Shown piece after piece: positions 13,270 to 32,964 of a stretch of 64,000 nt of DNA. The notes below the pieces were generated by a model that was not told where the DNA came from, made no database searches, and was given only the letters and a program-made list of their open reading frames with translations. The position numbers and the translations under genes are program-made. Positions within the stretch are counted from its first letter, which is position 1; every line of letters starts with the position of its first letter. The stretch is from the sequence record NC_047822.1; one strand, given 5' to 3'. This stretch comes from Escherichia phage phiLLS.

Positions 13270-13298
13270 AAGCCCCTAAGTCTTTCTACTAGGGGCTT
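13270..13298. terminator. Bidirectional terminator hairpin
   Basis: Perfect stem aagcccct...aggggctt with T-rich flanks on both strands; lies between convergent genes. Confidence 0.5.
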
Positions 13299-13516
13299 TA
13301 TTGTTTGGTTTCTTAGAACCATATACTCTTGTTACAGCAACCACCCATACGGGAGGCCAATCTTGACTGAAAATCTACTCTAGGGGGCAGGATAAGAGTA
13401 GGCTTAAAGGCAAAGGGATTGAACGCCGGTATTTGTGTAAACATTGCTGGAGAGCAACAACGTGCTACAGGCATTGGGCAGCACGAAACAGATTTTCTGC
13501 AACACATAATTTCTCC

Positions 13517-13933
13517 TTAGGAGTTATTACCACCATTTTGAGCTTTTGCAACTTGGCTTTGGCAGAAGCTATTAAACTTACCCATAAGTGATACAAGCTG
13601 TTTCCCATCCTCTGTCTTTGCGAAGTCTTCGAAAAGGGCTAGTACTGCCTGTCCTTCCGCAGAAACCTGCGGTTGTTGGGTTTGTTGCTGAACTTGCTGC
13701 TGAGCCACCTGTTGCTGCATTTGTTGAGGCATTTGCGACTGCCCGCTCATTTGCTGCATCATTTGCATAGGACTCACACTTCCAGGGTTTTGCTGGAGTT
13801 GTTGCTGCATCTGTTGCGCTTCTGCTAAACGCTGTTGCAATTGTTGTAAGTAGGGGTTATCCAGACCCGGAATGGGCTGCTGGGAGCCCCTACTTTGATT
13901 AAGTCCGTTATTTACAAAACCATATTTACTCAT
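13517..13933 (-). CDS. Hypothetical Gln-rich low-complexity protein
   Basis: 138-aa minus-strand ORF, poly-Q/QM repeats; AGGAGG RBS. Confidence 0.5.
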   Translation of the reverse strand: MSKYGFVNNGLNQSRGSQQPIPGLDNPYLQQLQQRLAEAQQMQQQLQQNPGSVSPMQMMQQMSGQSQMPQQMQQQVAQQQVQQQTQQPQVSAEGQAVLALFEDFAKTEDGKQLVSLMGKFNSFCQSQVAKAQNGGNNS

Positions 13934-13954
13934 AATGGGCTCCTCCCCCTAATA

Positions 13955-14947
13955 TTAAGCCGGCAGTTTAGCCTGCAGACCAGCCAGAGTCTGAGTGATA
14001 GCACCAAGACTTACAGCGATTTGATTAATTACCTGACCGTTAGCACCGTTACCCGCAGCGATTGCTTCACGTAGGCGACATGCATCTAACTCATCCTGAA
14101 TACGAGCAGTAGTTACACCAGCGATAGCAGTCTGAAGTTCACAGCAACATTCAGCGATCTGACGTTCCAGAGAGTTCTGGTTAGCACACATCTGAGCCTG
14201 AACAGCGGCAAACTGGTTATTAGTTTGTAAAGTCTGCTGGAAAGCGATCTGTGCAGAATCAAACTTATCTTGTGCACGAGCTATCTGATTAGCTGCGAAA
14301 GATTGATCAATCTGGCGAGAAAGATCGAACTGACCCTGAATAACGTTGCGAGTTTCCTGACAGATCTGATTAGACAGATTAGCACCTGTACCATAGATCG
14401 TAGTTAGTACAGACTGAGTATCACGGCTCTGGTTTTGGGATGTCTGGCTAAACCCATTGTTAACTGCGCTTAAAACAGCTCCAGTACCCTGGTTAGCTTC
14501 TGTACGAGTAGTGTTAATAGCTGCTAGAATACTAGCGGTATCTTGGTTCTGAAGTACTGCATCAACTGCGGTACCATCACCAACTACACCACGTCCACCG
14601 AATCCACCGAAACCACCGAATCCGCCTGTTAATAGAGCACCGATTAGGATAGCTCCGAATAGTCCCATACCTTCACCACCGAAAGCACCTGCGTTTGCTG
14701 GGTAACCACCCAGTAGGCCAGGGAAGCCACTAGTAAATACGTTTACTGGTTCTTGCATTTTATGTTTTCCATATTTATGACAATGTTCATCGTCATCTTC
14801 TTCATCATCGTGTTCACGATGTTTTTCTTCGTAGGCTCTGACCTTCTCCCACTTTTTCTTATCTGATTCCTCGTGACGGTGCAGTTCTGCTGCAACGCTA
14901 GCGACGGTCTCAGGACTCTTAGCTACTTCTTCTGTCATTTTTGACAC
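13955..14947 (-). CDS. Hypothetical Gly-rich and Gln/Asn-rich protein
   Basis: 330 aa; acidic His-rich N-terminus, glycine-zipper hydrophobic segment (GGFGGFGGFGG), C-terminal Cys cluster; strong AGGAGGTG RBS. Confidence 0.55.
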   Translation of the reverse strand: MSKMTEEVAKSPETVASVAAELHRHEESDKKKWEKVRAYEEKHREHDDEEDDDEHCHKYGKHKMQEPVNVFTSGFPGLLGGYPANAGAFGGEGMGLFGAILIGALLTGGFGGFGGFGGRGVVGDGTAVDAVLQNQDTASILAAINTTRTEANQGTGAVLSAVNNGFSQTSQNQSRDTQSVLTTIYGTGANLSNQICQETRNVIQGQFDLSRQIDQSFAANQIARAQDKFDSAQIAFQQTLQTNNQFAAVQAQMCANQNSLERQIAECCCELQTAIAGVTTARIQDELDACRLREAIAAGNGANGQVINQIAVSLGAITQTLAGLQAKLPA

Positions 14948-15145
14948 CTCCTAGTATATAGAAAATGTGTGTCTCTTTGATCACTCATCCATAACATATA
15001 CTTTACACTACCCCAGCGAAAATGTCAAGGGGTCTTTAAAAATTGCCCCTGAATTTTTAGTGGGGTCACAAATTTTGGTCCTCACCACTTATCTGCTATC
15101 CTTAAGTGCCCTATGATTTTCCTCTAAAAAGTTAAAAAAATTTGA

Positions 15146-15174
15146 TTGCTTGAATGCTAAATTCTCTGTATAAT
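15146..15174 (+). promoter_or_regulatory. T5-type early promoter
   Basis: -35 TTGCTT, 17-bp spacer, -10 TATAAT. Confidence 0.55.
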
Positions 15175-15204
15175 ATATCTATAAATTTGAAAGAGGAACC
15201 AAAT

Positions 15205-15723
15205 ATGAATGTTGATGAGCTAACACAGCACCTCTTATCTAGAGGATTTGATACAGATAAATATCATTGCTGGTTAAGTCCGGAAGGATGGCTAACAGTC
15301 CCGTTGTATGACTTCTCTGGGATGTTGAGGGGCTATCAAACTTATAATCCTTCTGCTCCAAAAGGTCATGGTAAGTGCCCCTTTGAAGCTAAATACTTTA
15401 CTTATTCTACTACCCAGTGTGTATGGGGACTAGAAACTCTCAATGGAGATGAAAAAGTAGTATTGATTGCTGAATCTGTATTTAAGGCAGTTGCGTTACA
15501 TAATGCTGGTTATCCAGCCCTAGCAATGTTGGGTTCTTCTCCAGGAAAAGCGTTATTAAAGCAACTGAAATTACTACCTTTTAAATTGGTAGCTGTCGGA
15601 GATAATGATCCTGCGGGTGAAAAATTTGCTAGAAAATTAAACGGCTTTGTTTCTCCCGTAGATGTGGATGAGATGTCTACCGAAAACTTGAAAAATTTTC
15701 TTGCTATGAAGCTAAATTTCTAA
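15205..15723 (+). CDS. Hypothetical protein, possible Toprim-domain protein
   Basis: ATG with AGAGGAAC RBS; IAES...GDNDPAGE resembles Toprim acidic motifs. Confidence 0.4.
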   Translation: MNVDELTQHLLSRGFDTDKYHCWLSPEGWLTVPLYDFSGMLRGYQTYNPSAPKGHGKCPFEAKYFTYSTTQCVWGLETLNGDEKVVLIAESVFKAVALHNAGYPALAMLGSSPGKALLKQLKLLPFKLVAVGDNDPAGEKFARKLNGFVSPVDVDEMSTENLKNFLAMKLNF

Positions 15724-15729
15724 TATAAT
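15701..15729 (+). promoter_or_regulatory. T5-type promoter upstream of tRNA genes
   Basis: -35 TTGCTA, 17-bp spacer, -10 TATAAT overlapping the 3' end of the preceding CDS. Confidence 0.5.
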
Positions 15730-15744
15730 ATATCTTATAAATTC

Positions 15745-15833
15745 GGAAGAATAGCATAACGGTATTGCAGCAGATTGCTAATCTGTCGGTTTGAAATATA
15801 GCCTTGTGGGTTCGATTCCCGCTTCTTCCGCCA
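15745..15833 (+). tRNA. tRNA-Ser (anticodon GCT), class II, CCA encoded
   Basis: Acceptor ggaagaa/ttcttcc, anticodon loop TTGCTAA, long variable arm, T-arm gtggg-TTCGATT-cccgc. Confidence 0.65.
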
Positions 15834-15839
15834 AATTCT

Positions 15840-15917
15840 GGTTCTCAAGCTCATATGGTATGAGCACCCGGCTCATAACCGGAAGGTACGTAGGTTCGAA
15901 TCCTCGGGGAGCCACCA
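15840..15917 (+). tRNA. tRNA with anticodon CAT (Met or Ile2)
   Basis: D-stem gctc/gagc, anticodon loop CTCATAA, T-loop TTCGAAT, acceptor with two G-U pairs, CCA encoded. Confidence 0.55.
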
Positions 15918-15936
15918 AATTAAATAGAGGTCACAA

Positions 15937-16125
15937 ATGGATCTATATATAGTTTATGTTGTGTTTATCCAAGATAGAGAATACCCGGATGAATATAAAA
16001 AAGGGTATAGGTTGGCCAGAGCTACCTCTGAAGCCCAAGCTATGGATAAAGTGGCAGATTATATGATTACGGTAGAAAACATACACTATATCGACTACCT
16101 TGAAGCCTCAAAAGTAATTGACTAA
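15937..16125 (+). CDS. Hypothetical small protein
   Basis: 62-aa ORF with GAGG RBS between tRNA genes. Confidence 0.45.
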   Translation: MDLYIVYVVFIQDREYPDEYKKGYRLARATSEAQAMDKVADYMITVENIHYIDYLEASKVID

Positions 16126-16132
16126 ACTACAC

Positions 16133-16209
16133 GGGGGTGTAATCGAATTGGCATAGGTACTGGACTTAAAATTCAGGTTTTGTGGGTTCGAATCCCACCA
16201 CCCCTACCA
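16133..16209 (+). tRNA. tRNA with anticodon TAA (Leu-type anticodon) but short variable loop
   Basis: Acceptor gggggtg/cacccct, anticodon stem ctgga/ttcag with loop CTTAAAA, T-arm gtggg-TTCGAAT-cccac, CCA encoded. Confidence 0.5.
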
Positions 16210-16224
16210 AACTAAGGAAATAAG

Positions 16225-16392
16225 ATGTATAGACATCCACCTCCGCCAACACGTCGTTCTAGAGAAGTTATCCTCATGGAATTGACTAAAAACTTCAAGG
16301 CAACTCTTGAAGATAGAGATCTAGGTACAGATGAAGACGTTGATTTCATTTGTAAACTATTAAAAATGAAGCTGGAGAAACATCATGGCTAA
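16225..16392 (+). CDS. Hypothetical small protein (55 aa)
   Basis: ATG with AGGAAA RBS; below ORF-track length cutoff. Confidence 0.35.
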   Translation: MYRHPPPPTRRSREVILMELTKNFKATLEDRDLGTDEDVDFICKLLKMKLEKHHG

Positions 16393-16591
16393 CCGTGAAA
16401 TTACTATGCAACGAATCATGACTAAAGGCATGATAGCCGAGGCAGGTATTGAACAAGAAGTAAAAGGCTATTACGAACAGATTAAGACTATTATAGACTC
16501 TGCTAAAAACACCGGAGAAAAAGAGCATGGTGCGGCAATTATGGCTATAACTCTTATTAGTCTAGACTTGGCCGAAGAATCTGGAGTTTAG
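16385..16591 (+). CDS. Hypothetical small protein
   Basis: 68-aa ORF; start overlaps the preceding small ORF. Confidence 0.4.
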   Translation: MANREITMQRIMTKGMIAEAGIEQEVKGYYEQIKTIIDSAKNTGEKEHGAAIMAITLISLDLAEESGV

Positions 16592-16621
16592 CTCCTCCAA
16601 ACAGAATTTTTAAAAATGTAC

Positions 16622-16651
16622 TTGCCTTTTGCTTTAAATTTCTGATATAAT
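16622..16651 (+). promoter_or_regulatory. T5-type early promoter
   Basis: -35 TTGCCT, 18-bp spacer, -10 TATAAT. Confidence 0.5.
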
Positions 16652-16681
16652 AGTTATATAAATTGATGGAGGAGTTAACGA

Positions 16682-16957
16682 ATGCAAAATCGTGTTGTAG
16701 CAACTGGTATTGAAAGTGCAATCTGTAAATCCTGGGAAGGCTGGGAAGGTGAGATTGAATGGCTTTATTTCTATGATGTAGAACTTCTACCGGAAGTTAA
16801 AGCTAAATGTATTGAAGCTGGCATGGCTCCAGATGCAAAAGCTGATATTGATATTTTAATGTCTGAACTTAAAGGTCGTGTAGTTACCGTTAGTAATGAG
16901 GGCGAAGAAGTTTTCGAACTTCCGTTCTCCTTAACTGTCACTCCTAAGTTCGACTAA
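16682..16957 (+). CDS. Hypothetical protein
   Basis: 91-aa ORF with GGAGG RBS after promoter. Confidence 0.5.
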   Translation: MQNRVVATGIESAICKSWEGWEGEIEWLYFYDVELLPEVKAKCIEAGMAPDAKADIDILMSELKGRVVTVSNEGEEVFELPFSLTVTPKFD

Positions 16958-16993
16958 CTAATACAGCACTGAGCAAGTTCTTTAAAATTTGAC

Positions 16994-17022
16994 TTGCTCA
17001 GTGCTATAAAACTTGATATAAT
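16994..17022 (+). promoter_or_regulatory. Promoter embedded in a terminator hairpin, upstream of tRNA genes
   Basis: -35 TTGCTC, 17-bp spacer, -10 TATAAT; the -35 lies in the 3' arm of hairpin agcactgagcaagt...acttgctcagtgct. Confidence 0.5.
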
Positions 17023-17156
17023 AGTTATCTAATTTGGAAAGTTCTTTTTAAGGTAGTTCCTACTTTAGTAGAGTAAATTTTTGGCAGATGGCCCCCACCA
17101 TTTTACCGATAACTCCTAGTCAGTGCGGCAACACTGGCTACCTTAAAGAGAATTTT

Positions 17157-17244
17157 GGGCGTTTATTCCGTAAGTGGTAGCGGAGGGGATTGTAAATCCC
17201 TGGTCATTGCGACTCGAGTGGTTCGACTCCATTAACGCCCACCA
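17157..17244 (+). tRNA. tRNA-Tyr (anticodon GTA), class II, CCA encoded
   Basis: Perfect acceptor gggcgtt/aacgccc, anticodon loop TTGTAAA, long variable arm, T-arm agtgg-TTCGACT-ccatt. Confidence 0.6.
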
Positions 17245-17251
17245 ATTTAAT

Positions 17252-17326
17252 GCACCTATCGTCTAGCGGTTAGGACACCACTCTTTCACAGTGGGAACAC
17301 GAGTTCGACCCTCGTTGGGTGTGCCA
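17252..17326 (+). tRNA. tRNA-Glu (anticodon TTC), CCA encoded
   Basis: D-arm GTCTAGCGGTTAGGAC as in bacterial tRNA-Glu, anticodon stem ccact/agtgg with loop CTTTCAC, T-arm acgag-TTCGACC-ctcgt. Confidence 0.7.
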
Positions 17327-17335
17327 ATTAATAAT

Positions 17336-17406
17336 TGGGGTACGCATAGGTTGCAAATGGGCCTCCAAAACCCATGAAAAGGTTTCGAATACCTTTACCC
17401 CTGCCA
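17336..17406 (+). tRNA. tRNA-Trp (anticodon CCA), compact, CCA encoded
   Basis: Anticodon loop CTCCAAA, T-arm aaggt-TTCGAAT-acctt, acceptor tggggta/tacccct with 1:72 mismatch. Confidence 0.5.
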
Positions 17407-17412
17407 AAATTT

Positions 17413-17487
17413 GCACCTTTAGCTGAGATGGATTAGCGCTTGCCTGAAGAGCTTGAGAGGTTCGTTCGATTCGAACAGGGTGCACCA
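17413..17487 (+). tRNA. tRNA, probable Phe (anticodon GAA), CCA encoded
   Basis: Acceptor gcacctt/agggtgc, D-arm gctg-agatggat-tagc, loop CTGAAGA, T-arm gttcg-TTCGATT-cgaac; anticodon stem weak. Confidence 0.5.
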
Positions 17488-17504
17488 ATTTGAAGGAGCT
17501 GCTG

Positions 17505-17777
17505 ATGCATACTGAAAACTTCTTTATTTACTGCGCGGATAAGTCGCTGAAACGTAGAATTAACAAAGTCTATCATTATCGTGTTAGTCAACAGCCTTAT
17601 GTATATGCTTTTGACGGTGATCACATTCCACTAGAACAATTATCTTGTGATTACATGATATTGAAGAACTTTGACGAGACAAAGATCTCAAGCGTTCATA
17701 ATCGACAGAATCCATTAACGTGGAAATATAAGAAGAAAAAGAAAGGCATCAAATTCTTAAAAAATGTAGTTGCTTAG
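17505..17777 (+). CDS. Hypothetical protein
   Basis: ATG with GAAGGAG RBS right after the tRNA; the ORF-track TTG start at 17490 is less likely. Confidence 0.45.
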   Translation: MHTENFFIYCADKSLKRRINKVYHYRVSQQPYVYAFDGDHIPLEQLSCDYMILKNFDETKISSVHNRQNPLTWKYKKKKKGIKFLKNVVA

Positions 17778-17797
17778 TTTCCAAAAGTTCTGTATAA
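17769..17797 (+). promoter_or_regulatory. T5-type early promoter
   Basis: -35 TTGCTT, 17-bp spacer, -10 TATAAT. Confidence 0.55.
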
Positions 17798-17845
17798 TAA
17801 TTACATAAATTGAACTGGAGAAGCAACATGACAGAATAAGATAAA

Positions 17846-17921
17846 CCGACCGTTGGCTGAATGGCTTAGGCGAAGGATTGCAAATCCTTTTTATGTGAGT
17901 TCAAATCTCATGCGGTCGTCC
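17846..17921 (+). tRNA. tRNA-Cys (anticodon GCA), CCA encoded
   Basis: Acceptor cgaccgt/gcggtcg, anticodon stem aagga/tcctt with loop TTGCAAA, T-arm gtgag-TTCAAAT-ctcat. Confidence 0.7.
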
Positions 17922-17943
17922 AAATTACTAAAGGAAAGAAGTA

Positions 17944-18462
17944 GTGCATACAAAAGTTTTTGATAGTTTGGTAAAGAAAGGCATTGTTACTAATAAGCCT
18001 TTCTGTATAACCGCAGAACTAATCCAAAGATTTATGGAAGAATATATAAATCTTTCAGGAACTAATGGTAATACCAAAAAGAATACAAATACTATGTATT
18101 CGAGAAAACTTGCCGCACTTTCCTTTATAAAGTTTAAGCAGGAAAATAAACTTCCTATTTCTGAAGGTTTTGTATACTGTATTAGTAATCCTGCATGGAA
18201 AAATCAGTATAAAATAGGTATGAGTCAAAATCCAAAAGAGAGATTAGCTCAATATCAGACCTATTCCCCCTATAGGGATTATAAATTAGAGCATTGGTCG
18301 TTTTGGTTTGACAAACGAAAAGGTGAAAAACTAATTCACCAGTATTTCAAAGATTTAAAAGAACATGAGTGGTTTAGTATAAATTCTAGGGATCTTAGTA
18401 AATATCTAGAACGTATTAACTCTAGTTCTGACTTATATGGTTCCTTAGCTCTAATTGGTTAG
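17944..18462 (+). CDS. T5orf172 / GIY-YIG-like domain protein (GTG start)
   Basis: GFVYCISNPAWKNQYKIGMSQNPKERL resembles the GIY-YIG-like T5orf172 domain; AT-rich; 3' end overlaps the next tRNA. Confidence 0.55.
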   Translation: MHTKVFDSLVKKGIVTNKPFCITAELIQRFMEEYINLSGTNGNTKKNTNTMYSRKLAALSFIKFKQENKLPISEGFVYCISNPAWKNQYKIGMSQNPKERLAQYQTYSPYRDYKLEHWSFWFDKRKGEKLIHQYFKDLKEHEWFSINSRDLSKYLERINSSSDLYGSLALIG

Positions 18463-18516
18463 AGCGGCATCTTGTTAAGTTGAGGGTTGCTGGTTCGAAT
18501 CCAGCAGGAACCGCCA
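18439..18516 (+). tRNA. tRNA, probable Asn (anticodon GTT), CCA encoded
   Basis: Perfect acceptor ggttcct/aggaacc, D-stem gctc/gagc, loop TTGTTAA, T-arm gctgg-TTCGAAT-ccagc; anticodon stem weak. Confidence 0.5.
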
Positions 18517-18618
18517 AATTCTGTGTAGAGTTAAGTAAACCGGTAGCCAACCAGCTATCATTGCTGACATCGAATTCAGCCACAGATACCATTTTCATTA
18601 ATAACTGAGGAAATAAGC

Positions 18619-18804
18619 ATGTCCAAGAATGTAATTGCGCAGCTAGAAGTTCATCGTGATAGCACTATCAACAATATTGAAGTTGAAAAGAAATACATCG
18701 AAGAACTTAAACACGATATACTAATAAGTCTCAATCGTCTTAATGTACGAAAAGAGTTTCTTAAAGAACTTAATGCAGCTATTGAAAAACTCAAAGCTGA
18801 GTAA
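18619..18804 (+). CDS. Hypothetical small coiled-coil protein
   Basis: 61-aa ORF with GAGGAAA RBS. Confidence 0.45.
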   Translation: MSKNVIAQLEVHRDSTINNIEVEKKYIEELKHDILISLNRLNVRKEFLKELNAAIEKLKAE

Positions 18805-18813
18805 ATGAATTAT

Positions 18814-18890
18814 GCGACCGGGGCTGGCTTGGTAATGGTACTCCCCTGTCACGGGAGGGAATGTGGGTTCAAATCCCATCGGTCGCGCCA
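18814..18890 (+). tRNA. tRNA-Asp (anticodon GTC), CCA encoded
   Basis: Perfect acceptor gcgaccg/cggtcgc, anticodon stem ctccc/gggag with loop CTGTCAC, T-arm gtggg-TTCAAAT-cccat. Confidence 0.7.
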
Positions 18891-18915
18891 AATTAATTTA
18901 GTATGAGAATATACT

Positions 18916-19263
18916 ATGCGTAATGCCAAAGAAGAGCTGTTACTTGCCTTAAAAAATACTAATTCTGAAGTTAAATGTATTAAAATAGAATTCGGGTATT
19001 ATGGGGATAAAAAAGTTTGGGTATTGCCTTTAGGTTACACAGAAGAAGATATTGAGGATTTTCTTAATAACCTAGACTTTAAATATGACTCTGGGTACGG
19101 TGGACAATTACTTTATGGTAATGTATGGTTTGCCGATGGAACTTGGCTAGAACGTGGAGAATATGATGGTGCTGAGTGGTGGGAATACAAAGCCACACCA
19201 GCAATTCCAGAGGAATGCCGAACAATTAATGGTGAAGTAGATAATACTTTACGGTTAAACTAA
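18916..19263 (+). CDS. Hypothetical protein
   Basis: 115-aa ORF between tRNA genes. Confidence 0.45.
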   Translation: MRNAKEELLLALKNTNSEVKCIKIEFGYYGDKKVWVLPLGYTEEDIEDFLNNLDFKYDSGYGGQLLYGNVWFADGTWLERGEYDGAEWWEYKATPAIPEECRTINGEVDNTLRLN

Positions 19264-19385
19264 TAAAATTTCAGTGCAGAACACGGAGCTAGCAATTCGG
19301 AAGTGCTGACTCATGATAAGCTGCCTATGTACTTGCGAAGCGGTCGTGTCCAAGACTCGGACTCTTGCACTGAAAACAATCAAAC

Positions 19386-19506
19386 ATTCTAGCGTGGTTG
19401 ATGGGGAAACCAGCTTGGCTAGGGCAGAAGCTCGTTCGATTCGAGTGAAAGAATGGTTCTCGTAAGTCCGCACAAGTGATAACAGGTTCGAGTCCTGTCT
19501 AGAATG
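19386..19506 (+). ncRNA. Atypical tRNA-like element with two T-arm-like hairpins enclosed by a perfect 7-bp acceptor-like stem
   Basis: attctag...ctagaat closing stem; D-like arm tggtt-gatgggga-aacca; T-arms gctcg-TTCGATT-cgagt and acagg-TTCGAGT-cctgt; 121 nt. Confidence 0.3.
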
Positions 19507-19692
19507 ACATATTCTGGAGATTCTATGGATTATGAAGAGTTAGATAAATTAGCTGATACATTATCAGAACTATCTGATAATGTAGTAATAAAAGATTCTA
19601 GGATAGACAGTTTTATTGCTGATTATCGTAATGGTATTATCTCTAGGCAAGAACTAGTAGATAAAACTTATCAATATTTAAAGGGAAAGTAA
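19504..19692 (+). CDS. Hypothetical small acidic protein
   Basis: 62-aa ORF. Confidence 0.4.
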   Translation: MTYSGDSMDYEELDKLADTLSELSDNVVIKDSRIDSFIADYRNGIISRQELVDKTYQYLKGK

Positions 19693-19710
19693 ACGAAAGT
19701 TTACTTATTA
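19689..19710 (+). terminator. Terminator-like hairpin
   Basis: gtaaacgaaagtttac followed by TTATTA. Confidence 0.4.
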
Positions 19711-19837
19711 TGTAGGTTCCGATAGATCGGCGGGTCTATTCTGGCATTTAAGAGAAGTCTCGCAAACTTCTTTGTCAGCCGTGGGGTTGGTAGCCTCCAG
19801 GTGGCCTACACAATAAGTAAATTTATTAAAAATTCAT

Positions 19838-19866
19838 TTGCTATTCTGCTTTATTATCTGTATAAT
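19838..19866 (+). promoter_or_regulatory. T5-type early promoter
   Basis: -35 TTGCTA, 17-bp spacer, -10 TATAAT. Confidence 0.55.
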
Positions 19867-19898
19867 ATATTTTATAAAGTGAAGAGAAGGAAAGCAAA

Positions 19899-20057
19899 AT
19901 GAAACACAAGATAGCTCAAGTTTTTATGGCATTATGGTGTATGCCAATAGCTATAACAGCATTTAATCTAGATACTTTTACTATAGAAGAAAAATGTATC
20001 GGATTAGTTAGCGGTTTTAGTATGCTGGGCTTATCTTTGCTGTGGTTAAAGAAATAA
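19899..20057 (+). CDS. Hypothetical small membrane protein (52 aa)
   Basis: ATG with AGAAGGAAAG RBS after promoter; hydrophobic; below ORF-track cutoff. Confidence 0.4.
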   Translation: MKHKIAQVFMALWCMPIAITAFNLDTFTIEEKCIGLVSGFSMLGLSLLWLKK

Positions 20058-20061
20058 TATT

Positions 20062-20139
20062 CTCCGTGTAGCTCAGTTTGGCCAGAGCGTTTCGTTTGGG
20101 GCGATAGGGTCGGGGGTTCAAATCCTCCCACGGAGACCA
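20062..20139 (+). tRNA. tRNA-Pro (anticodon TGG), CCA encoded
   Basis: Perfect acceptor ctccgtg/cacggag, D-stem gctc/gagc, loop TTTGGGG, T-arm ggggg-TTCAAAT-cctcc. Confidence 0.65.
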
Positions 20140-20145
20140 AACAAT

Positions 20146-20223
20146 TGCGGGTTAGATCTCTGGTAGAGATCGCTAGTCTCATAAGCTAGAAAGAGGTAGG
20201 TTCGATTCCTGCACCCGCTTCCA
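20146..20223 (+). tRNA. tRNA with anticodon CAT (Met or Ile2), CCA encoded
   Basis: D-stem gatc/gatc, anticodon stem ctagt/gctag with loop CTCATAA, T-arm gtagg-TTCGATT-cctgc, 1:72 mismatch. Confidence 0.55.
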
Positions 20224-20243
20224 TTTTAATAGAGGATTTCGAA

Positions 20244-20411
20244 ATGAAAGTATTTCGATTAGTAGTAAGTGACAAACGTTTAGGTAATAATACCTCAAGA
20301 TCCTTACTTGCACATTATGGAAAAGATGAAAAAGAAGTAATGGCGGAGTTTGGGATTAATCATTCTTACTTAAAAGTCCATTCTATTAAAGAAGTATACA
20401 ATGGTTACTAA
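20244..20411 (+). CDS. Hypothetical small protein (55 aa)
   Basis: ATG with AGAGGA RBS; below ORF-track cutoff. Confidence 0.35.
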   Translation: MKVFRLVVSDKRLGNNTSRSLLAHYGKDEKEVMAEFGINHSYLKVHSIKEVYNGY

Positions 20412-20412
20412 T

Positions 20413-20491
20413 AGATCGCTAGCTCAATAGGTTTAGTAGCATCCGACTTTTAATCGGAAGGTTCTGGGTTCGAGTCCCAGGCGATCTACCA
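20413..20491 (+). tRNA. tRNA-Lys (anticodon TTT), CCA encoded
   Basis: Perfect acceptor agatcgc/gcgatct, anticodon stem tccga/tcgga with loop CTTTTAA, T-arm ctggg-TTCGAGT-cccag. Confidence 0.7.
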
Positions 20492-20509
20492 ATTTCAAGA
20501 AAAACGCAG

Positions 20510-20538
20510 TTGCTTGATGCTTAATTTCTTGTTATAAT
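20510..20538 (+). promoter_or_regulatory. T5-type promoter driving a 1.3-kb ORF-free RNA-gene region
   Basis: -35 TTGCTT, 17-bp spacer, -10 TATAAT. Confidence 0.55.
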
Positions 20539-20871
20539 ATTTATATAAATTGATGCGAAAATAGCTGCCTAGATACCAGGTGTATGACGTCTACACTAGC
20601 AGAGCTACCGAAAAAGAGATCCTCAGGATAAACGTCGTAGCAAAATTAGTCTGGTATCCATCAATTTAGTTCACTAAGGTATTAGCTCGACCTAGGACTG
20701 GCTGCCAAAAAGCACGATCCCTACGATTCGGGAGAAGTTCTAGATTAGTCCACTAGATTCAGCGGCAACTGAATAGTGTATTGGGTTTGCGAGATGACGC
20801 AGTTCCTTCCGCTCGAAGCGAAGGTGCTGTAGTTACGCCGAGCTAATAGCCTTAGTAAACTAAAGAATTTG

Positions 20872-20947
20872 GGGGAATGGGTCTGCATGGAGTGGACACC
20901 TCGCTTGCACCGAGGACATCAGAACGGTTCGATTCCGTTATTCTCCA
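20872..20947 (+). tRNA. tRNA-Ala (anticodon TGC)
   Basis: Acceptor ggggaat/attctcc, D-stem gtct/ggac, perfect anticodon stem cctcg/cgagg with loop CTTGCAC, T-arm aacgg-TTCGATT-ccgtt. Confidence 0.6.
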
Positions 20948-20955
20948 CAAAATAC

Positions 20956-21033
20956 GCGTGATTGATGGAATTGGCATACATACCGTCCTTAGAAGTCGGG
21001 TTTTGAGGGTTCGAATCCCTTGTCACGCACCAA
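20956..21033 (+). tRNA. tRNA with anticodon TAG (Leu-type anticodon) but short variable loop, CCA encoded
   Basis: Acceptor gcgtgat/gtcacgc, loop CTTAGAA, 5-nt variable loop, T-arm gaggg-TTCGAAT-ccctt. Confidence 0.5.
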
Positions 21034-21144
21034 ATTTGATGGTCAGAGTAAATTAAACCTACTATCTCGGTTGAGCTGTTTTAATGGGTTCGAATCCCAG
21101 CGGGGCGTAACTGCCTGGTGTGATAGAGGCATCATCTTATTATT

Positions 21145-21235
21145 GGAAGAGCAAATCGAATTGGCGACGAAAACCGCTTGGAAAGTGGCTGACTGGTAAA
21201 ACGGCTTGAGAGTTCAAATCTCTCCTCTTCCGCCA
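21145..21235 (+). tRNA. tRNA-Ser (anticodon GGA), class II, CCA encoded
   Basis: Perfect acceptor ggaagag/ctcttcc, loop TTGGAAA, long variable arm, T-arm gagag-TTCAAAT-ctctc. Confidence 0.55.
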
Positions 21236-21247
21236 AACAATTTATAT

Positions 21248-21342
21248 GGTAGGTCAATCCAACGGCTGGCGCTGGACTCCGACTTGAAATCGGTTGATCG
21301 TAGTGATACGGTGTAAGGGTTCGATCCCCTTACCTACCTCCA
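21248..21342 (+). tRNA. tRNA-Ser (anticodon TGA), class II, CCA encoded
   Basis: Perfect acceptor ggtaggt/acctacc, anticodon stem ccga/tcgg with loop CTTGAAA, long variable arm, T-arm aaggg-TTCGATC-ccctt. Confidence 0.55.
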
Positions 21343-21707
21343 AATCTTGGAATATGCCGGAATTGGTAGACGGGACTGCCGAATAGGTTTACTAGGAACA
21401 TCCACTCCTAGAAATATACCTTAAAAGCGGTTGAGTTAAATGGTCTAACTCATGAAGGTTCAAATCCTTCTATTCCTTGATACATCAATGGCTCAAAGTG
21501 TAACGGTGCTATTTGATGCACTTGGAAAGACTTTCCCGACATGCGTTCGGGGGTAAGCTTCTGAGGCTAGAATAGAAGAGTTTCTGGGAGCCGCCACAAT
21601 CGAAAATTCGTACTCGTCTTGAGCTGCGTGCAATAGGAGATAACTTGATTAGTATTCTAGAACATGCTAATTGAGGATGGTTTCGCTAACCCTGCGAGTT
21701 TTCAATT

Positions 21708-21784
21708 GTGGCTATATCATAATTGGTTAATGATCCTGATTGTGAATCAGGCCTATGTGGATTCGAATTCCACTAGCCACCCCA
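21708..21784 (+). tRNA. tRNA-His (anticodon GTG), CCA encoded
   Basis: Perfect acceptor gtggcta/tagccac with C73 discriminator, anticodon stem cctga/tcagg with loop TTGTGAA, T-arm gtgga-TTCGAAT-tccac. Confidence 0.7.
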
Positions 21785-21809
21785 AATTAATTTAAATAGG
21801 AAATAAAAT

Positions 21810-22004
21810 ATGGCTGATTTCTGCAAACAATGCTCCATTGATATGTGGGGCAGAGATACTGGTGACTTAGCTGGTCTGATTACAGAAGCCGAAGTCAAAG
21901 AAGGTTATGGTGCAGTTGTGGTTTGCGAAGGATGCGGAGTCATTCGAGTAGACCATAAAGGTAAGCGCCTTGAAGAACCTGAGCCAGTTACTCTATTTCC
22001 ATAG
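21810..22004 (+). CDS. Hypothetical small Cys-rich (zinc-ribbon-like) protein
   Basis: 64-aa ORF with CxxC...CxxC pairs. Confidence 0.45.
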   Translation: MADFCKQCSIDMWGRDTGDLAGLITEAEVKEGYGAVVVCEGCGVIRVDHKGKRLEEPEPVTLFP

Positions 22005-22017
22005 AGTAAAGAATTAT

Positions 22018-22093
22018 TGGGATGTAGATCAATTGGCAGATCGTCGGCCTCTGACTCCGAAGGTTCCACGTTCGATCCGTGGCATCCCAGCCA
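22018..22093 (+). tRNA. tRNA-Gln (anticodon CTG), CCA encoded
   Basis: Perfect acceptor tgggatg/catccca, D-stem gatc/gatc, loop CTCTGAC, T-arm ccacg-TTCGATC-cgtgg. Confidence 0.6.
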
Positions 22094-22099
22094 AATTAT

Positions 22100-22175
22100 T
22101 GGAGAGTAGTGTAACGGTTAGCACAACGGCCTTTGACTCCGTTAATGGTAGGTTCGATTCCTCCTTCTCCAGCCA
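22100..22175 (+). tRNA. tRNA-Gln (anticodon TTG), CCA encoded
   Basis: Acceptor tggagag/ttctcca, anticodon stem acgg/ccgt with loop CTTTGAC, T-arm gtagg-TTCGATT-cctcc. Confidence 0.6.
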
Positions 22176-22192
22176 ACTTAAAAGGTAAAAAT

Positions 22193-22753
22193 GTGAAGGT
22201 AATACCGGAATTTCCATTATATAGTATATCTGAGGATGGTAAAGTTTGGTCAACTTATTCTAATAAGTTTTTATCCTCTTATATTAACAATGATGGGTAT
22301 CCCTGTTATAAATTACATAAGAAGGGGGTTCAGTATACTCAACTAATACATAGATTATTAGCTAGAGTATACAAAGATCTGCCTTCTCTGGATTCTGACC
22401 TAGAGGTAGATCACAAAGATACTAATATTCTTAACTATGCACTAGAGAATATACAAGTTCTCAGTAAAGAGGATCACAGAAAGAAAACCTTACTAGATAA
22501 TGGGTATACTGCGTATAACAAGGTATGTCCAACTTGCTCAGGATACAAAGATCCCGGAGCTATTCAGTGTAAGGGATGTTCTTCGCTATCCCAAGTAAAG
22601 AATAAAGATGTTACTGCTGAGCAAATAGAATACTGGGTGTCCAAGTATTCATGGGTTAGAGCAGCCAAAGAATTTGGATACTCAGATAATGGACTTCGTA
22701 AAAGGTATAAATCCCTTACTGGTAAAGATCCAAAAACAATAAAACGCGGTTAG
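22193..22753 (+). CDS. HNH homing endonuclease (probable GTG start)
   Basis: HNH motif EVDHKDTNILNYALENIQVL plus Cys-rich C-terminus; ORF-track start overlaps tRNA-Gln; stop overlaps tRNA-Gly. Confidence 0.6.
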   Translation: MKVIPEFPLYSISEDGKVWSTYSNKFLSSYINNDGYPCYKLHKKGVQYTQLIHRLLARVYKDLPSLDSDLEVDHKDTNILNYALENIQVLSKEDHRKKTLLDNGYTAYNKVCPTCSGYKDPGAIQCKGCSSLSQVKNKDVTAEQIEYWVSKYSWVRAAKEFGYSDNGLRKRYKSLTGKDPKTIKRG

Positions 22754-22817
22754 CCTCATGGTGGGGACTCAGCCTTCCAAGCTGATGGAGAGGGTTCGAT
22801 TCCCTCTAGCCGCTCCA
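22746..22817 (+). tRNA. tRNA-Gly (anticodon TCC), compact, CCA encoded
   Basis: Acceptor gcggtta/tagccgc, perfect anticodon stem tcagc/gctga with loop CTTCCAA, T-arm gaggg-TTCGATT-ccctc. Confidence 0.55.
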
Positions 22818-22833
22818 ACTTTAAGGAAACACT

Positions 22834-23085
22834 ATGCACGTTTTTGAGTTTCGTAATAAAAGTACTGATAAGCGAGTTATCATTATTGGAGAAACATATC
22901 GAGCATATGAACAAACTGACGGCTCTGTTATCTTGAATGATGAGAAAGGAGGTTTTAGCTTTTATCCAGAAGAACCTTATGAAGAGTTTCGAAAACAATT
23001 TAACCTAGACTGGAGAAAGCATTTAAACACTGTTGCTCCATCTGTAGTATTGCCAACTACCAGTACTGTACCCTCTAATGGCTGA
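22834..23085 (+). CDS. Hypothetical protein
   Basis: 83-aa ORF with AGGAAAC RBS. Confidence 0.45.
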   Translation: MHVFEFRNKSTDKRVIIIGETYRAYEQTDGSVILNDEKGGFSFYPEEPYEEFRKQFNLDWRKHLNTVAPSVVLPTTSTVPSNG

Positions 23086-23242
23086 CAACCTAAAAGTAAA
23101 GATTGATAAACAAAAGAAACGTGTAGAAGTAGAGATTGGCGAAGAACGTGTTGCCTTTACTTTCGAGTTTCTTCAGCAGTTGGCAATGACAGTAATGTCA
23201 GATAAATCCCCTGTATTTGAAAAAGAAATCCCGTTGAAATAA
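23078..23242 (+). CDS. Hypothetical small protein (54 aa)
   Basis: ATG overlapping the stop of the preceding gene (ATGGCTGA); below ORF-track cutoff. Confidence 0.35.
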   Translation: MADNLKVKIDKQKKRVEVEIGEERVAFTFEFLQQLAMTVMSDKSPVFEKEIPLK

Positions 23243-23252
23243 CGGGATTATC

Positions 23253-23327
23253 GCTCCTAAAGCATTGCTGGCGATGCAGTTGCCTTGTAAGCATCTGAAC
23301 CGGGTTCGATTCCTGGTGGGAGCACCA
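23253..23327 (+). tRNA. tRNA-Thr (anticodon TGT), CCA encoded
   Basis: Acceptor gctccta/tgggagc, D-stem gcat/atgc, loop CTTGTAA, T-arm ccggg-TTCGATT-cctgg. Confidence 0.6.
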
Positions 23328-23342
23328 AATTTAAAAATTCAT

Positions 23343-23371
23343 TTGCTTTCTCCCTTATTTATTGCTATAAT
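23343..23371 (+). promoter_or_regulatory. T5-type early promoter
   Basis: -35 TTGCTT, 17-bp spacer, -10 TATAAT. Confidence 0.55.
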
Positions 23372-23401
23372 ATTTATATAAATTAATGAGAGGGAAACCA
23401 A

Positions 23402-23692
23402 ATGAAACGTTATCTTTCTGTAATATTCCAAACTGGTGGCCAAAGATACACCTATGAATTTCCATCCTCTTGGAAAATCAAAGAGGGTGATCAAGTAGTA
23501 GTGCTAACACCGCGTGAAGGATATAAAGTAGTAACGGTTAAACAAGTATTTCCAAAAGATCATGAACCAGCTAAAGGCATCCGCTATAAGATGATTCATG
23601 GTGTGGTTCGTCAAGTACCACGAACTGAGGTAGAAGTAGATAAGACTGGAGAAACTAAATTCCATTATACTTCTTACTTAGACAGTGTGTGA
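23402..23692 (+). CDS. Hypothetical protein
   Basis: 96-aa ORF with GAGAGGGAAAC RBS after promoter. Confidence 0.5.
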   Translation: MKRYLSVIFQTGGQRYTYEFPSSWKIKEGDQVVVLTPREGYKVVTVKQVFPKDHEPAKGIRYKMIHGVVRQVPRTEVEVDKTGETKFHYTSYLDSV

Positions 23693-23707
23693 TGTAAATA
23701 TTTTAAT

Positions 23708-23784
23708 GCTTCGGTAGCTTAGCGATCTAAAGCACTCGGCCGATAACCGAGAGATCGGGGGTTTAAATCCCTCCCGGAGTACCA
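23708..23784 (+). tRNA. tRNA-Ile (anticodon GAT), atypical loops, CCA encoded
   Basis: Acceptor gcttcgg/ccggagt, perfect anticodon stem ctcgg/ccgag with loop CCGATAA, T-arm ggggg-TTTAAAT-ccctc. Confidence 0.5.
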
Positions 23785-23880
23785 AATTTAGGAATTAAGA
23801 CTATGCGTCCAGGAAAGTTTAAAAAAGCTAATTGGTCTAAAGAGTATAAAGAATACTTACTTAGTCTAGTAAAACATAAC

Positions 23881-23956
23881 AGTTAGTTGGCAGAGTGGTT
23901 ATGCACCTCCTTCATACGGAGCGACTACAGTGGTTCAAATCCACTACTAACTACCA
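23881..23956 (+). tRNA. tRNA with anticodon CAT (Met or Ile2), CCA encoded
   Basis: Perfect acceptor agttagt/actaact, D-stem gca/tgc, loop TTCATAC, perfect T-arm agtgg-TTCAAAT-ccact. Confidence 0.6.
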
Positions 23957-32962: not shown

Positions 32963-32964
32963 AC

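What the first reader, a model, noticed from the sequence alone, without database searches (positions are those of the whole stretch)
19386..19506. 121-nt tRNA-like element with two T-arm-like hairpins inside one acceptor-like stem
A perfect 7-bp helix (attctag...ctagaat) closes a structure containing a D-like arm and two consecutive hairpins with T-loop sequences (TTCGATT and TTCGAGT), but no canonical 7-nt anticodon loop. It is too long for a class I tRNA and does not fit class II. It could be a tRNA with an insertion, a fused pseudogene pair, or another stable RNA.
Basis: seen in the sequence. Interest (0 to 1): 0.5.

Follow-up and report, generated by a model that had tools for sequence, protein, structure and literature searches.

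The report
Phage T5 "RNA2" tRNA-like stable RNA
The element is real and is the counterpart of phage T5's long-annotated "RNA2": a transfer-RNA-shaped molecule whose anticodon loop is replaced by a strongly conserved ~55-base module, which turns out to be shared by many unrelated large phages and whose job is still unknown.

Summary
The window is a T5-like phage and the finding lies in its tRNA gene cluster. Bases 19386-19509 align with T5 misc_RNA rna2 ("RNA2, tRNA-like stable RNA with unknown functions") with 6 substitutions, in the same gene order. The object is therefore already annotated in GenBank.

ARAGORN and Rfam do not call it a tRNA, two tRNAs or a tmRNA.

Comparison of 32 distinct homologues shows an ordinary tRNA cloverleaf that covaries freely (93% of cells paired; covariation score 0.76 against 0.17 in shuffles). 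In it the 7-nt anticodon loop is replaced by a near-invariant module:
- GGGY/RUCC helix
- GUAA bulge
- short second helix
- an inner hairpin carrying a full T-loop signature
- an A/U-rich linker ending in GG
- GCA

The family occurs in T5-like, T4-like and jumbo phages, usually inside large tRNA arrays. It was not found in E. coli genomes, and only once (a phage-like bin) among 80 listed bacterial-genome pattern hits. Most copies lack an encoded CCA and no aminoacylation identity is conserved.

My reading is a non-decoding RNA carried on a tRNA scaffold whose module binds a conserved partner. That function is inferred, not shown.

The parts
19386..19392 (+). Acceptor stem, 5' strand (ATTCTAG). 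T5's annotated rna2 starts one base earlier, at 19385.
   Evidence: Pairs with 19499-19505. All 7 pairs covary across the family.
19395..19412 (+). D arm: stem TGGT/ACCA around the loop TGATGGGGAA, which contains the GG.
   Evidence: All 4 pairs show changes on both sides; 94-95% of cells are paired.
19413..19417 (+). Anticodon-stem equivalent, 5' strand (GCTTG).
   Evidence: Pairs with 19473-19477. All 5 pairs covary; 99-100% of cells are paired.
19418..19421 (+). 5' junction (GCTA; family consensus N-C-G/U-A/U), facing the invariant GCA.
   Evidence: Hand alignment.
19422..19425 (+). Helix A, 5' strand (GGGC; family GGGY).
   Evidence: GGG is invariant. The fourth pair is U-A in 18, C-G in 6 and unpaired in 8 of 32 sequences.
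19427..19430 (+). Helix B, 5' strand (GAAG), after the single unpaired A at 19426.
   Evidence: The first G pairs with C19461 (G-C in 29 of 32). The second pair covaries (AU 11, GC 8, UA 8). The third pair is weak.
19431..19445 (+). Inner hairpin carrying a complete T-loop signature (CTCG-TTCGATT-CGAG).
   Evidence: Stem is 100% paired and 3 of 4 pairs covary. G, TTC, A, T and C of the loop region are invariant.
19446..19458 (+). A-rich linker TGAAAGAATGGTT, with the conserved GG at 19455-19456.
   Evidence: Length and sequence vary between phages, but a GG upstream of helix B's 3' strand is present in every aligned copy. L052/L068 carry a ~50-nt insertion here.
19459..19461 (+). Helix B, 3' strand (CTC).
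   Evidence: See helix B 5' strand.
19462..19465 (+). Invariant GUAA bulge between helices B and A.
   Evidence: Invariant in the 22 aligned sequences. Note that GTAA was part of the search patterns used to collect most homologues.
19466..19472 (+). Helix A 3' strand (GTCC; family RUCC), then the invariant GCA.
   Evidence: TCCGCA was also part of the search patterns.
19473..19477 (+). Anticodon-stem equivalent, 3' strand (CAAGT).
19478..19481 (+). Variable loop (GATA), 4 nt as in class I tRNAs.
19482..19498 (+). T arm proper (ACAGG-TTCGAGT-CCTGT).
   Evidence: 95-97% of cells are paired and 3-4 of 5 pairs covary.
19499..19509 (+). Acceptor stem 3' strand (CTAGAAT), discriminator G (19506), then ACA where the neighbouring tRNAs have CCA. 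T5's annotated rna2 ends at the position equivalent to 19509.

Best explanation
This is the orthologue of bacteriophage T5 RNA2, a small stable RNA made from the phage's early tRNA gene cluster.

It has a complete tRNA body: a 7-bp acceptor stem, a D arm, a 5-bp anticodon stem, a 4-nt variable loop and a T arm. The 7-nt anticodon loop is replaced by a ~55-nt module with near-invariant sequence. The module extends the anticodon stem through an internal loop (N-C-N-A / GCA) and helix A (GGGY/RUCC). A GUAA bulge and a short helix B follow. It ends in a second T-loop hairpin, followed by an A/U-rich linker that ends in GG.

My reading of how it works has three steps.
1. The tRNA body is a scaffold. 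It lets the host tRNA-maturation enzymes cut the RNA out of the polycistronic transcript (RNase P at the 5' end, 3' trimming) and keeps it stable.
2. It does not decode. It has no anticodon and no conserved identity elements, and usually no encoded CCA.
3. The conserved module is the working part. The inner T-loop plus GG probably folds into a second tRNA-elbow-like knob. The module binds, and so sequesters or recruits, a partner common to very different bacterial hosts, most plausibly a tRNA-binding component of the translation or tRNA-processing machinery.

What is shown: the identity with T5 RNA2, the architecture, the covariation and the phage-wide distribution. What is inferred: the route of biogenesis. 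What is hypothesis: the second elbow and the binding or decoy function.
For: Identity.
- The window is T5-like.
- 19386-19509 aligns with T5 rna2 (NC_005859 32959-33083) with 6 substitutions.
- It lies between the T5.067 homologue and the rnaIV and T5.066 homologues.
- T5's record calls rna2 a 'tRNA-like stable RNA with unknown functions'.
- 475 phage records hold a match.

Architecture.
- In a hand-made alignment of 22 distinct sequences, 93.8% of cells pair, against 59% in shuffles. The covariation score is 0.885 against 0.19 (0 of 500 shuffles reach it), and slid controls give 0.08-0.16.
- The same holds for 32 sequences aligned by Infernal: 93.1% paired, score 0.759 against 0.17.
- Rfam's tRNA model aligns homologue L051 end to end with 55 nt in place of the anticodon loop (44.8 bits). 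L072 also passes the tRNA gathering score (40.9 bits).

The module is the constrained part.
- Invariant bases cluster in the module: GGG, the inner T-loop, C-GUAA and UCCGCA.
- Every scaffold helix changes sequence freely.
- The Acinetobacter phage 133 and L146 copies have lost the acceptor stem and D arm but keep the module and T arm.

Not a decoder.
- All 21 tRNAs of the window encode CCA, while RNA2 has GACA.
- Only 3 of 22 family members encode CCA, and discriminators and acceptor pairs vary.

Distribution.
- The family occurs in T5-like, T4-like and 200-360 kb phage contigs, mostly inside tRNA arrays on the same strand.
- There is no match in 5,426 E. coli genomes.
- Of the 80 bacterial-genome pattern hits listed, one is family-like (L146, a phage-like bin). 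Two are ordinary class II tRNAs and the others look like unrelated, mostly coding sequence.
- There is no shared neighbouring protein across diverse loci, which fits a host partner or a self-contained RNA function.
- In Epseptimavirus the RNA is packed tightly between tRNA-Lys and tRNA-Gly, which fits co-processing with tRNAs.
Against: - No experiment or paper on its function was found in six literature searches.
- The inner T-loop and GG are invariant, so covariation cannot test whether they dock.
- Helix B is only partly supported (third pair paired in 13 of 32 sequences), and T5-like copies need an A.C mismatch or a register shift.
- The search patterns contained GTAANTCCGCA, so the invariance of those bases is partly built in.
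- L078 lacks the inner hairpin and the GG altogether, so the 'second elbow' is not indispensable.
- No candidate partner has been identified.
- As I recall, T5 deletion mutants lacking parts of the tRNA region are viable. If that is right, any function is accessory.
Confidence: 0.6

Rival explanations
1. The module is a self-contained ligand-binding aptamer or a small ribozyme displayed on a tRNA scaffold. It might, for example, soak up a small molecule common to all hosts, rather than bind a protein or RNA.
For: Near-invariant unpaired bases (GUAA, GCA, GG, T-loop) sit within a compact fold that is conserved across phages of very different hosts and G+C content (0.39-0.63), with no conserved protein neighbour. 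That pattern is typical of aptamers and ribozymes.
Against: No Rfam riboswitch or ribozyme family matches, even at E<=10. Nothing points to a ligand or a cleavage site. L078 lacks a third of the module.
Confidence: 0.12
2. It acts in cis, as a processing or stability element of the polycistronic tRNA transcript (an entry or punctuation site for RNase P or RNase E). It has no role as a free RNA.
For: It usually lies inside tRNA arrays on the same strand, sometimes abutting tRNAs on both sides.
Against: An ordinary tRNA-like fold would be enough for punctuation, so this does not explain a 55-nt module with invariant sequence. In L006 and L072 no tRNA is called anywhere in the fetched locus (10 kb and 5 kb), and L067 has only one, about 1.4 kb away. 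T5's record calls it a stable RNA.
Confidence: 0.1
3. It is a precursor of a real tRNA. The insert would be a new kind of small intron, removed to give a decoding tRNA.
For: The insert sits exactly where tRNA introns sit. Two homologues pass Rfam's tRNA gathering score with the insert treated as an insertion.
Against: - Joining the junctions gives N-C-G/U-A + GCA, without U33 or a purine at position 37, and its length varies from 6 to 8 nt.
- Discriminator and acceptor pairs are not conserved, so there is no single amino-acid identity.
- CCA is mostly absent although the neighbouring tRNAs encode it.
- The insert is far shorter than the ~200 nt or more I recall for group I introns, and no intron family matches.
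- T5's own tRNA set spans all 20 amino acids, so a further tRNA is not obviously needed.
- The insert is more conserved than the supposed exons.
Confidence: 0.05
4. It is a decayed tRNA gene, or two fused tRNA pseudogenes, with no function.
For: It lies in a tRNA cluster and carries two T-arm-like hairpins. In T5-like copies AGAAU after hairpin 1 could pair with the 5' end.
Against: It is conserved in 475 phage records and in unrelated phage groups. Compensatory changes maintain every helix. The insert is near-invariant. The alternative pairing is not conserved (absent in the KEY copy).
Confidence: 0.03
5. It is a miniature tmRNA-like or peptide-coding RNA. The frame NUG-AAA-GAA-UGG-UUC-NCG-UAA is open in T5-like and T4-like copies.
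For: GUG, AUG or UUG followed by five codons and the conserved UAA can be read in the window, L006 and phage 133 copies.
Against: The first base of the 'start codon' is simply the covarying last base of the hairpin stem. The frame is lost or changed in the Klebsiella and My1 copies. ARAGORN finds no tmRNA. There is no G3.U70 pair for alanylation and no pseudoknots.
Confidence: 0.02

Closest known systems
Bacteriophage T5 RNA2 (gene rna2, locus T5s06, NC_005859 32959-33083)
   Same: Same sequence apart from 6 substitutions, same neighbours and same strand relative to the tRNA cluster. This is the same gene in a sister phage.
   Different: The window copy has a perfect A-U at acceptor pair 3-70 where T5 has U.G. 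A 62-aa ORF is inserted between RNA2 and RNAIV.
Bacteriophage T4 species 1 and species 2 RNAs (rnaC, rnaD)
   Same: Small stable RNAs, their function not stated in the record, encoded at the end of a phage tRNA cluster. rnaC has a T arm and an acceptor-like end.
   Different: Not homologous. The RNA2 model gives rnaC 23 bits (a generic tRNA-like score) and rnaD no match at E<=1. Neither carries the GGGY...GUAA-RUCC-GCA module.
Canonical tRNA (Rfam RF00005)
   Same: Acceptor, D, anticodon and T helices of standard lengths, T-loop and D-loop GG, 4-5-nt variable loop. True tRNAs score 20-37 bits on the RNA2 model, and two homologues pass the tRNA gathering score.
   Different: No anticodon loop, no conserved identity elements and mostly no CCA. 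The window copy has C8 and U14 where tRNAs generally have U8 and A14 (from memory), and it fails both tRNA finders.
Bacterial Y-RNA-like YrlA RNAs (tRNA mimics bound by Ro/Rsr); features as I recall them from Chen et al. 2014, listed but not read
   Same: Non-coding RNAs with a tRNA-like domain joined to a second functional domain. Some are phage-encoded.
   Different: In YrlA the RNA ends form the Ro-binding stem and the acceptor-like stem is closed by a loop. Here the ends form the acceptor stem and the extra domain replaces the anticodon loop. No Rfam family other than tRNA-clan models gave a convincing match. As I recall, E. coli K-12 has no Ro orthologue.
tmRNA tRNA-like domain
   Same: A tRNA-like acceptor and T-arm part whose anticodon arm is replaced by a long helix leading to another domain.
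   Different: RNA2 has a full D arm, no G3.U70, no tag reading frame, no pseudoknots and is 121-125 nt long. ARAGORN finds no tmRNA.
Engineered 'tRNA scaffold' for expressing recombinant RNAs in E. coli (from memory: Ponchon and Dardel 2007)
   Same: A foreign structured RNA inserted in place of the anticodon loop of a tRNA, so that the chimera is processed and stabilised like a tRNA.
   Different: That is an artificial design. RNA2 would be a natural, evolutionarily conserved case.

Membership tests
T5 RNA2 orthologous group | Full-length sequence identity to T5 rna2 | tested here: met
   6 substitutions over the ~124 aligned bases. R1 scores: 91.9 bits for the window copy, 89.8 bits for T5.
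T5 RNA2 orthologous group | Same genomic position (after the T5.067 homologue, before rnaIV and T5.066, between tRNA-Asp and tRNA-Pro) | tested here: met
T5 RNA2 orthologous group | Accumulates as a stable ~125-nt RNA in infected cells | not testable with these tools
Phage RNA2-like family as defined here (tRNA body plus conserved module) | Covarying cloverleaf with the anticodon loop replaced by GGGY - G.. - T-loop hairpin - linker..GG - ..C GUAA RUCC GCA | tested here: met
Canonical tRNA | 7-nt anticodon loop with U33, an anticodon and a purine at 37 | tested here: not met
   The loop is replaced by 55 nt. The joined junctions read GCUA+GCA.
Canonical tRNA | Recognised by tRNA finders (ARAGORN; Rfam RF00005 at gathering score) | tested here: not met
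   for the window copy. Homologues L051 and L072 do pass.
Canonical tRNA | 3' CCA, as encoded by the other tRNAs of this phage | tested here: not met
   GACA here, against CCA in all 21 tRNAs of the window. Addition after transcription cannot be excluded.
Intron-containing tRNA (bacterial group I intron type) | An intron with a group I core; removing it restores a standard anticodon loop | tested here: not met
   55 nt, no intron family match. The junctions do not rebuild a standard loop.
tmRNA | tRNA-like domain with G3.U70, a tag reading frame and pseudoknots | tested here: not met
   ARAGORN finds no tmRNA. Pair 3-70 is UA, GC, AU or CG across the family.
YrlA / bacterial Y RNA | Match to a Y-RNA-like Rfam model; ends forming a Ro-binding stem | tested here: not met
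   No such match at E<=10. The ends form the acceptor stem.
T4 rnaC / rnaD | Sequence and structure homology | tested here: not met
   23 bits for rnaC and no match for rnaD with model R1. The sequences were also read directly.

The most novel reading that the evidence does not exclude
The ~55-nt module would be an autonomous functional RNA domain that large virulent phages display on a tRNA scaffold. It could be a second tRNA-elbow mimic, an aptamer or a ribozyme. The RNA would then work as an abundant RNA decoy or sponge against a universal host factor or signal, for instance a tRNA-targeting defence or a tRNA-processing enzyme. That would make the old 'stable RNAs' of T-phage tRNA clusters a widespread, unrecognised class of RNA-based host-takeover or counter-defence tools.
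Probability: 0.2. Interest if true: 0.85.

Novelty: already known. Interest (0 to 1): 0.5.

Why it matters
The RNA itself is not new: T5's record has listed RNA2 for two decades, with function unknown. Three things seem not to have been written up in any paper I could find, and there is no Rfam family for them.
- It belongs to a phage-specific family that reaches T4-like and jumbo phages.
- The tRNA part is only a freely evolving scaffold.
- A near-invariant module replaces the anticodon loop.

That turns an old puzzle, what the non-tRNA stable RNAs in phage tRNA clusters are for, into something directly testable. It names the bases to mutate and the domain to use as bait. It would also be a natural precedent for the engineered 'tRNA scaffold' trick. 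On the practical side, tRNA finders miss it, and in the annotated records I inspected the homologous region carries no RNA feature or lies under 'hypothetical protein' calls.

Tried and rejected
- **Two tRNAs, a tmRNA or a known RNA family.** ARAGORN and Rfam (gathering and E<=10) give nothing convincing.
- **Thermodynamic support.** The z-score is -0.47 and the MFE fold is wrong for the inner hairpin, so I did not use it.
- **Homology with T4 rnaC/rnaD.** A few short shared strings seen by eye are not supported by the covariance model.
- **A host counterpart.** There is no match in E. coli genomes. The listed bacterial-genome pattern hits look like chance matches, mostly coding, apart from two ordinary class II tRNAs and one phage-like bin. 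The list may be capped at 80.
- **A conserved protein partner by neighbourhood.** None was found across diverse loci.
- **An ancestral tRNA type for the scaffold.** Scaffolds with the module removed resemble no particular isotype consistently.
- **A mini-ORF or tmRNA-like reading.** The frame is not conserved.
- **Resemblances recalled from memory.** These were 16S rRNA 560-580, the 23S GTPase-associated centre, 5S loop E and the Ro-binding helix of Y RNAs. They involve short strings that fall in covarying or differently paired positions, so I dropped them as coincidences without a formal test.
- **Literature.** Six searches found nothing on RNA2's function.
- **MAFFT alignments of raw sequences** mis-registered the 5' end and the inner hairpin. 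I replaced them with a hand-segmented, N-padded alignment and an Infernal alignment.

Full report
**What the window is.** ARAGORN finds 21 tRNA genes on the + strand between 12.1 and 24.0 kb, and Rfam adds two more tRNA-like hits. The 1.2 kb around the finding matches 435 phage records, almost all T5-like phages of Escherichia and Salmonella, at 90-98% identity. The window is therefore a Tequintavirus-type phage, and the finding lies in its early tRNA cluster.

**Checking the observation.**
- a perfect 7-bp helix, ATTCTAG (19386-19392) with CTAGAAT (19499-19505);
- a D-like arm, TGGT/ACCA, around TGATGGGGAA;
- hairpins with the loops TTCGATT (19435-19441) and TTCGAGT (19487-19493);
- no 7-nt anticodon loop.

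ARAGORN calls neither a tRNA nor a tmRNA here. Rfam gives nothing at gathering score or at E<=10 on 19200-20100. When the element is scanned alone there is only an 18-bit partial tRNA match to the 3' third. The predicted folding energy is unremarkable (z = -0.47). The case for a real structure therefore rests on comparison with other sequences, not on thermodynamics.

**What it is.** T5's reference record annotates eight non-tRNA 'stable RNAs' in its tRNA region. One of them is rna2 (T5s06, 32959-33083), described as 'RNA2, tRNA-like stable RNA with unknown functions'. Window 19385-19509 aligns with it with 6 substitutions. The flanks match too: the 115-aa ORF is T5.067, the downstream structured RNA is rnaIV, and the 52-aa two-helix membrane ORF is T5.066. 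The only rearrangement is a 62-aa ORF inserted between RNA2 and RNAIV in the window. So the finding is the orthologue of a gene that is already annotated.

**A much wider family.**
- BLAST of the element finds 475 phage records. These include T5 relatives of Klebsiella, Pectobacterium and Erwinia, and unexpectedly the T4-like Acinetobacter phage 133.
- In Epseptimavirus genomes the element is unannotated and sits tightly between tRNA-Lys(CUU) and tRNA-Gly(GCC).
- In phage 133 it fills the 105-nt gap between tRNA-Gly and tRNA-Cys.
- Two pattern scans of IMG/VR built on the conserved core brought in further, very different carriers. Among them are a 164-kb T4-like contig, contigs of 204, 311, 359 and 363 kb, a G+C-rich 125-kb contig, and several of 30-120 kb.
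- In most of these loci the element lies inside a large tRNA array on the same strand. In L006 and L072 no tRNA is called in the fetched locus.
- E. coli genomes hold nothing similar.
- The same pattern against 185,579 bacterial and archaeal genomes listed 80 hits. They look like chance matches, mostly in coding sequence, apart from two ordinary class II tRNAs and one phage-like bin (L146). That list may be capped at 80.
- I conclude that the family is phage-specific.

**Architecture.** MAFFT mis-registered the raw sequences. I therefore segmented 22 distinct homologues by fixed anchors and padded them to one length. On this alignment the proposed structure pairs 93.8% of cells, against 59% after shuffling. 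The covariation score is 0.885 against 0.19 (0 of 500 shuffles), and 0.08-0.16 when partners are slid by 1-3 columns.

A covariance model built from the alignment (R1) separates the family from ordinary tRNAs. Family members score 50-93 bits, one per locus, and the window copy scores 91.9. Ordinary tRNAs score at most 36.6 bits. An Infernal alignment of 32 distinct members gives the same picture: 93.1% paired, 0.759 against 0.17. Both alignments were fitted to the structure, which inflates the counts somewhat. However, the acceptor stem, T arm and inner hairpin were placed by fixed distances, not by optimising pairing.

The structure has two parts.
- **The tRNA body.** It comprises a 7-bp acceptor stem, a 4-bp D stem with a GG-containing loop, a 5-bp anticodon stem, a 4-5-nt variable loop and a 5-bp T stem with a standard T-loop. 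Every pair of the acceptor, D and anticodon stems changes on both sides somewhere in the family.
- **The module that replaces the anticodon loop.** Reading 5' to 3':
  - a short junction (N-C-G/U-A/U);
  - GGGY;
  - one unpaired A or U;
  - G plus 2-3 nt;
  - a 4-5-bp hairpin whose loop and closing pair carry the whole tRNA T-loop signature (G-UUCRAYU-C);
  - a linker of variable length and sequence, A/U-rich and ending in GG;
  - 2-3 nt plus C;
  - GUAA;
  - RUCC;
  - GCA.

Within the module, GGGY pairs with RUCC (helix A); its last pair switches between C-G and U-A. The G...C pair and its neighbour form a short helix B next to the GUAA bulge. The second pair of helix B covaries (AU, GC, UA) and the third is weak.

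Rfam's own tRNA model sees the same thing in homologue L051: an end-to-end tRNA alignment of 44.8 bits with 55 nt in place of the 7-nt loop.

**Which part matters.** The invariant bases are concentrated in the module, while the scaffold keeps its shape but not its sequence. Three natural variants help.
- The phage 133 and L146 copies have lost the acceptor stem and D arm. They keep the anticodon-type stem (which covaries: GCGCUG/CAGUGC against GUUCUG/CGGAAC), the module and the T arm.
- L052 and L068 carry a ~50-nt hairpin inserted in the linker, so the linker is peripheral.
- L078 replaces the inner hairpin, linker and GG by a plain stem-loop but keeps GGGU...GUAA-UUCC-GCA. The GUAA/helix A/GCA core is thus the most persistent piece, and the T-loop and GG come and go together.

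One caution applies: GTAANTCCGCA was in my search patterns, so the invariance of those bases is partly built in.

**It is not a working tRNA.**
- There is no anticodon loop.
- Joining the two junctions gives N-C-G/U-A + GCA, without U33 or a purine at position 37, and its length varies from 6 to 8 nt.
- Discriminator bases (G, A, U, C) and acceptor pairs vary, and there is no G3.U70.
- All 21 tRNAs in the window encode CCA, followed by an A/U-rich spacer. RNA2 has GACA instead, and only 3 of 22 family members encode CCA.
- With the module removed, the scaffolds resemble no particular tRNA isotype.

These points also argue against a small intron in a real tRNA. In addition, the insert is more conserved than the 'exons', and T5's tRNA set already spans all 20 amino acids.

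**How it probably works.**
- Shown: it is the T5 RNA2 orthologue, it has the architecture above, and it belongs to a phage-wide family.
- Inferred from what is known of tRNA maturation: the cloverleaf lets RNase P and the 3' trimming enzymes release it from the tRNA transcript and keeps it stable. This fits its tight packing between tRNAs and T5's 'stable RNA' label.
- Hypothesis: the module is the active part.
  - Its sequence is held constant across phages whose hosts range from enterobacteria to Acinetobacter to unknown G+C-rich bacteria.
  - No protein gene travels with it.
  - That points to a partner common to all these hosts, or to a self-contained RNA activity.
- The inner hairpin has every T-loop base that, in tRNA, receives G18 and G19 of the D loop, and a GG always follows it. 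I therefore propose that it folds into a second elbow-like knob at the end of a 12-13-bp arm. This cannot be tested by covariation because the bases never vary.
- My best guess is that the RNA binds and titrates, or recruits, a tRNA-binding component. I put about one chance in three on that specific function.

**Rivals.** A ligand-binding or catalytic domain on a tRNA scaffold is possible, although no Rfam family matches. A purely cis-acting processing signal does not explain the invariant module, nor the copies with no tRNA called nearby. A pseudogene or fused pair is contradicted by conservation and compensatory change. A tmRNA-like or peptide-coding reading fails because the small frame is not conserved.

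**Comparison with known things.**
- T4's species 1 and 2 RNAs are the classical analogues: stable RNAs at the end of a phage tRNA cluster. They are not homologues.
- YrlA/Y-RNA-like RNAs and tmRNA also join a tRNA-like part to another domain, but with different topology, and no such model matches.
- The closest functional analogy is the engineered tRNA scaffold used to express structured RNAs in E. coli.
- I found no paper on RNA2's function or on the wider family, and Rfam 15 has no model for it.

**Verdict.**
- The object is already known and annotated in T5, so novelty is 'already known'.
- The interest lies in the unsolved function and in the family-wide anatomy defined here, which makes that function testable.

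Noticed in passing
window 19268-19384: The ~117-nt stretch between the T5.067 homologue and RNA2 is 100% identical to T5, more conserved than RNA2 itself, and is unannotated there. It is closed by a 10-bp stem (UUUCAGUGCA / UGCACUGAAA); z = -1.5. It is also present upstream of RNA2 in some Epseptimavirus genomes.
   Followed up: partly
window 19697-19825: Homologue of T5 rnaIV ('stable RNA with unknown functions'). It folds into a very stable four-way junction, -49 kcal/mol, z = -4.84, with 0 of 200 shuffles as stable.
   Followed up: partly
window 19504-19692 (likely start 19525): A 62-aa ORF is inserted between RNA2 and RNAIV relative to T5. GGAG lies upstream of the second ATG. The longer reading overlaps the last bases of RNA2.
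   Followed up: no
window 15840-15914 and 11561-11632: Two Rfam tRNA hits that ARAGORN misses. The first has anticodon CAT and, from its position next to tRNA-Ser(GCU), probably corresponds to T5 tRNA-Ile2(CAU). The second is an odd tRNA-like sequence in the region T5 annotates as 'RNAX'.
   Followed up: partly
L004 2502-2645 (- strand; T5 rna1): T5 RNA1 (144 nt) also looks like a tRNA, with a class-II-type body and an enlarged anticodon arm. T5 may therefore use tRNA bodies to carry more than one kind of insert. It is conserved in 400 phage records.
   Followed up: partly
L005 1464-1568; L146 6935-7054; L078 1051-1153; L052 7915-8084 and L068 11919-12088: Natural variants of the RNA2 family. 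Two lack the acceptor stem and D arm and lie directly between or next to tRNAs. One lacks the inner T-loop hairpin and the GG. Two carry a ~50-nt hairpin inserted in the linker.
   Followed up: partly
L006 8968-9097; L045 8798-8913; L052 13445-13572; L050 6358-6466: Other over-long (110-130 nt) tRNA-like matches to the RNA2 model at 16-27 bits. They may be further tRNA-bodied RNAs carrying different inserts.
   Followed up: no
L045 12400-12474; L146 7053-7127; L052 9370-9444; L060 2569-2640; L068 10559-10633: Phage tRNA arrays that carry RNA2 also hold tRNAs with anticodon CTA (amber-reading, labelled 'Pyl' by ARAGORN) and tRNAs for which ARAGORN reports a two-base anticodon 'ta'.
   Followed up: no
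window 12136-23956: All 21 tRNA genes of the window encode the 3' CCA, usually followed by AAUU or AUUU. RNA2 is the exception, with GACA.
   Followed up: yes
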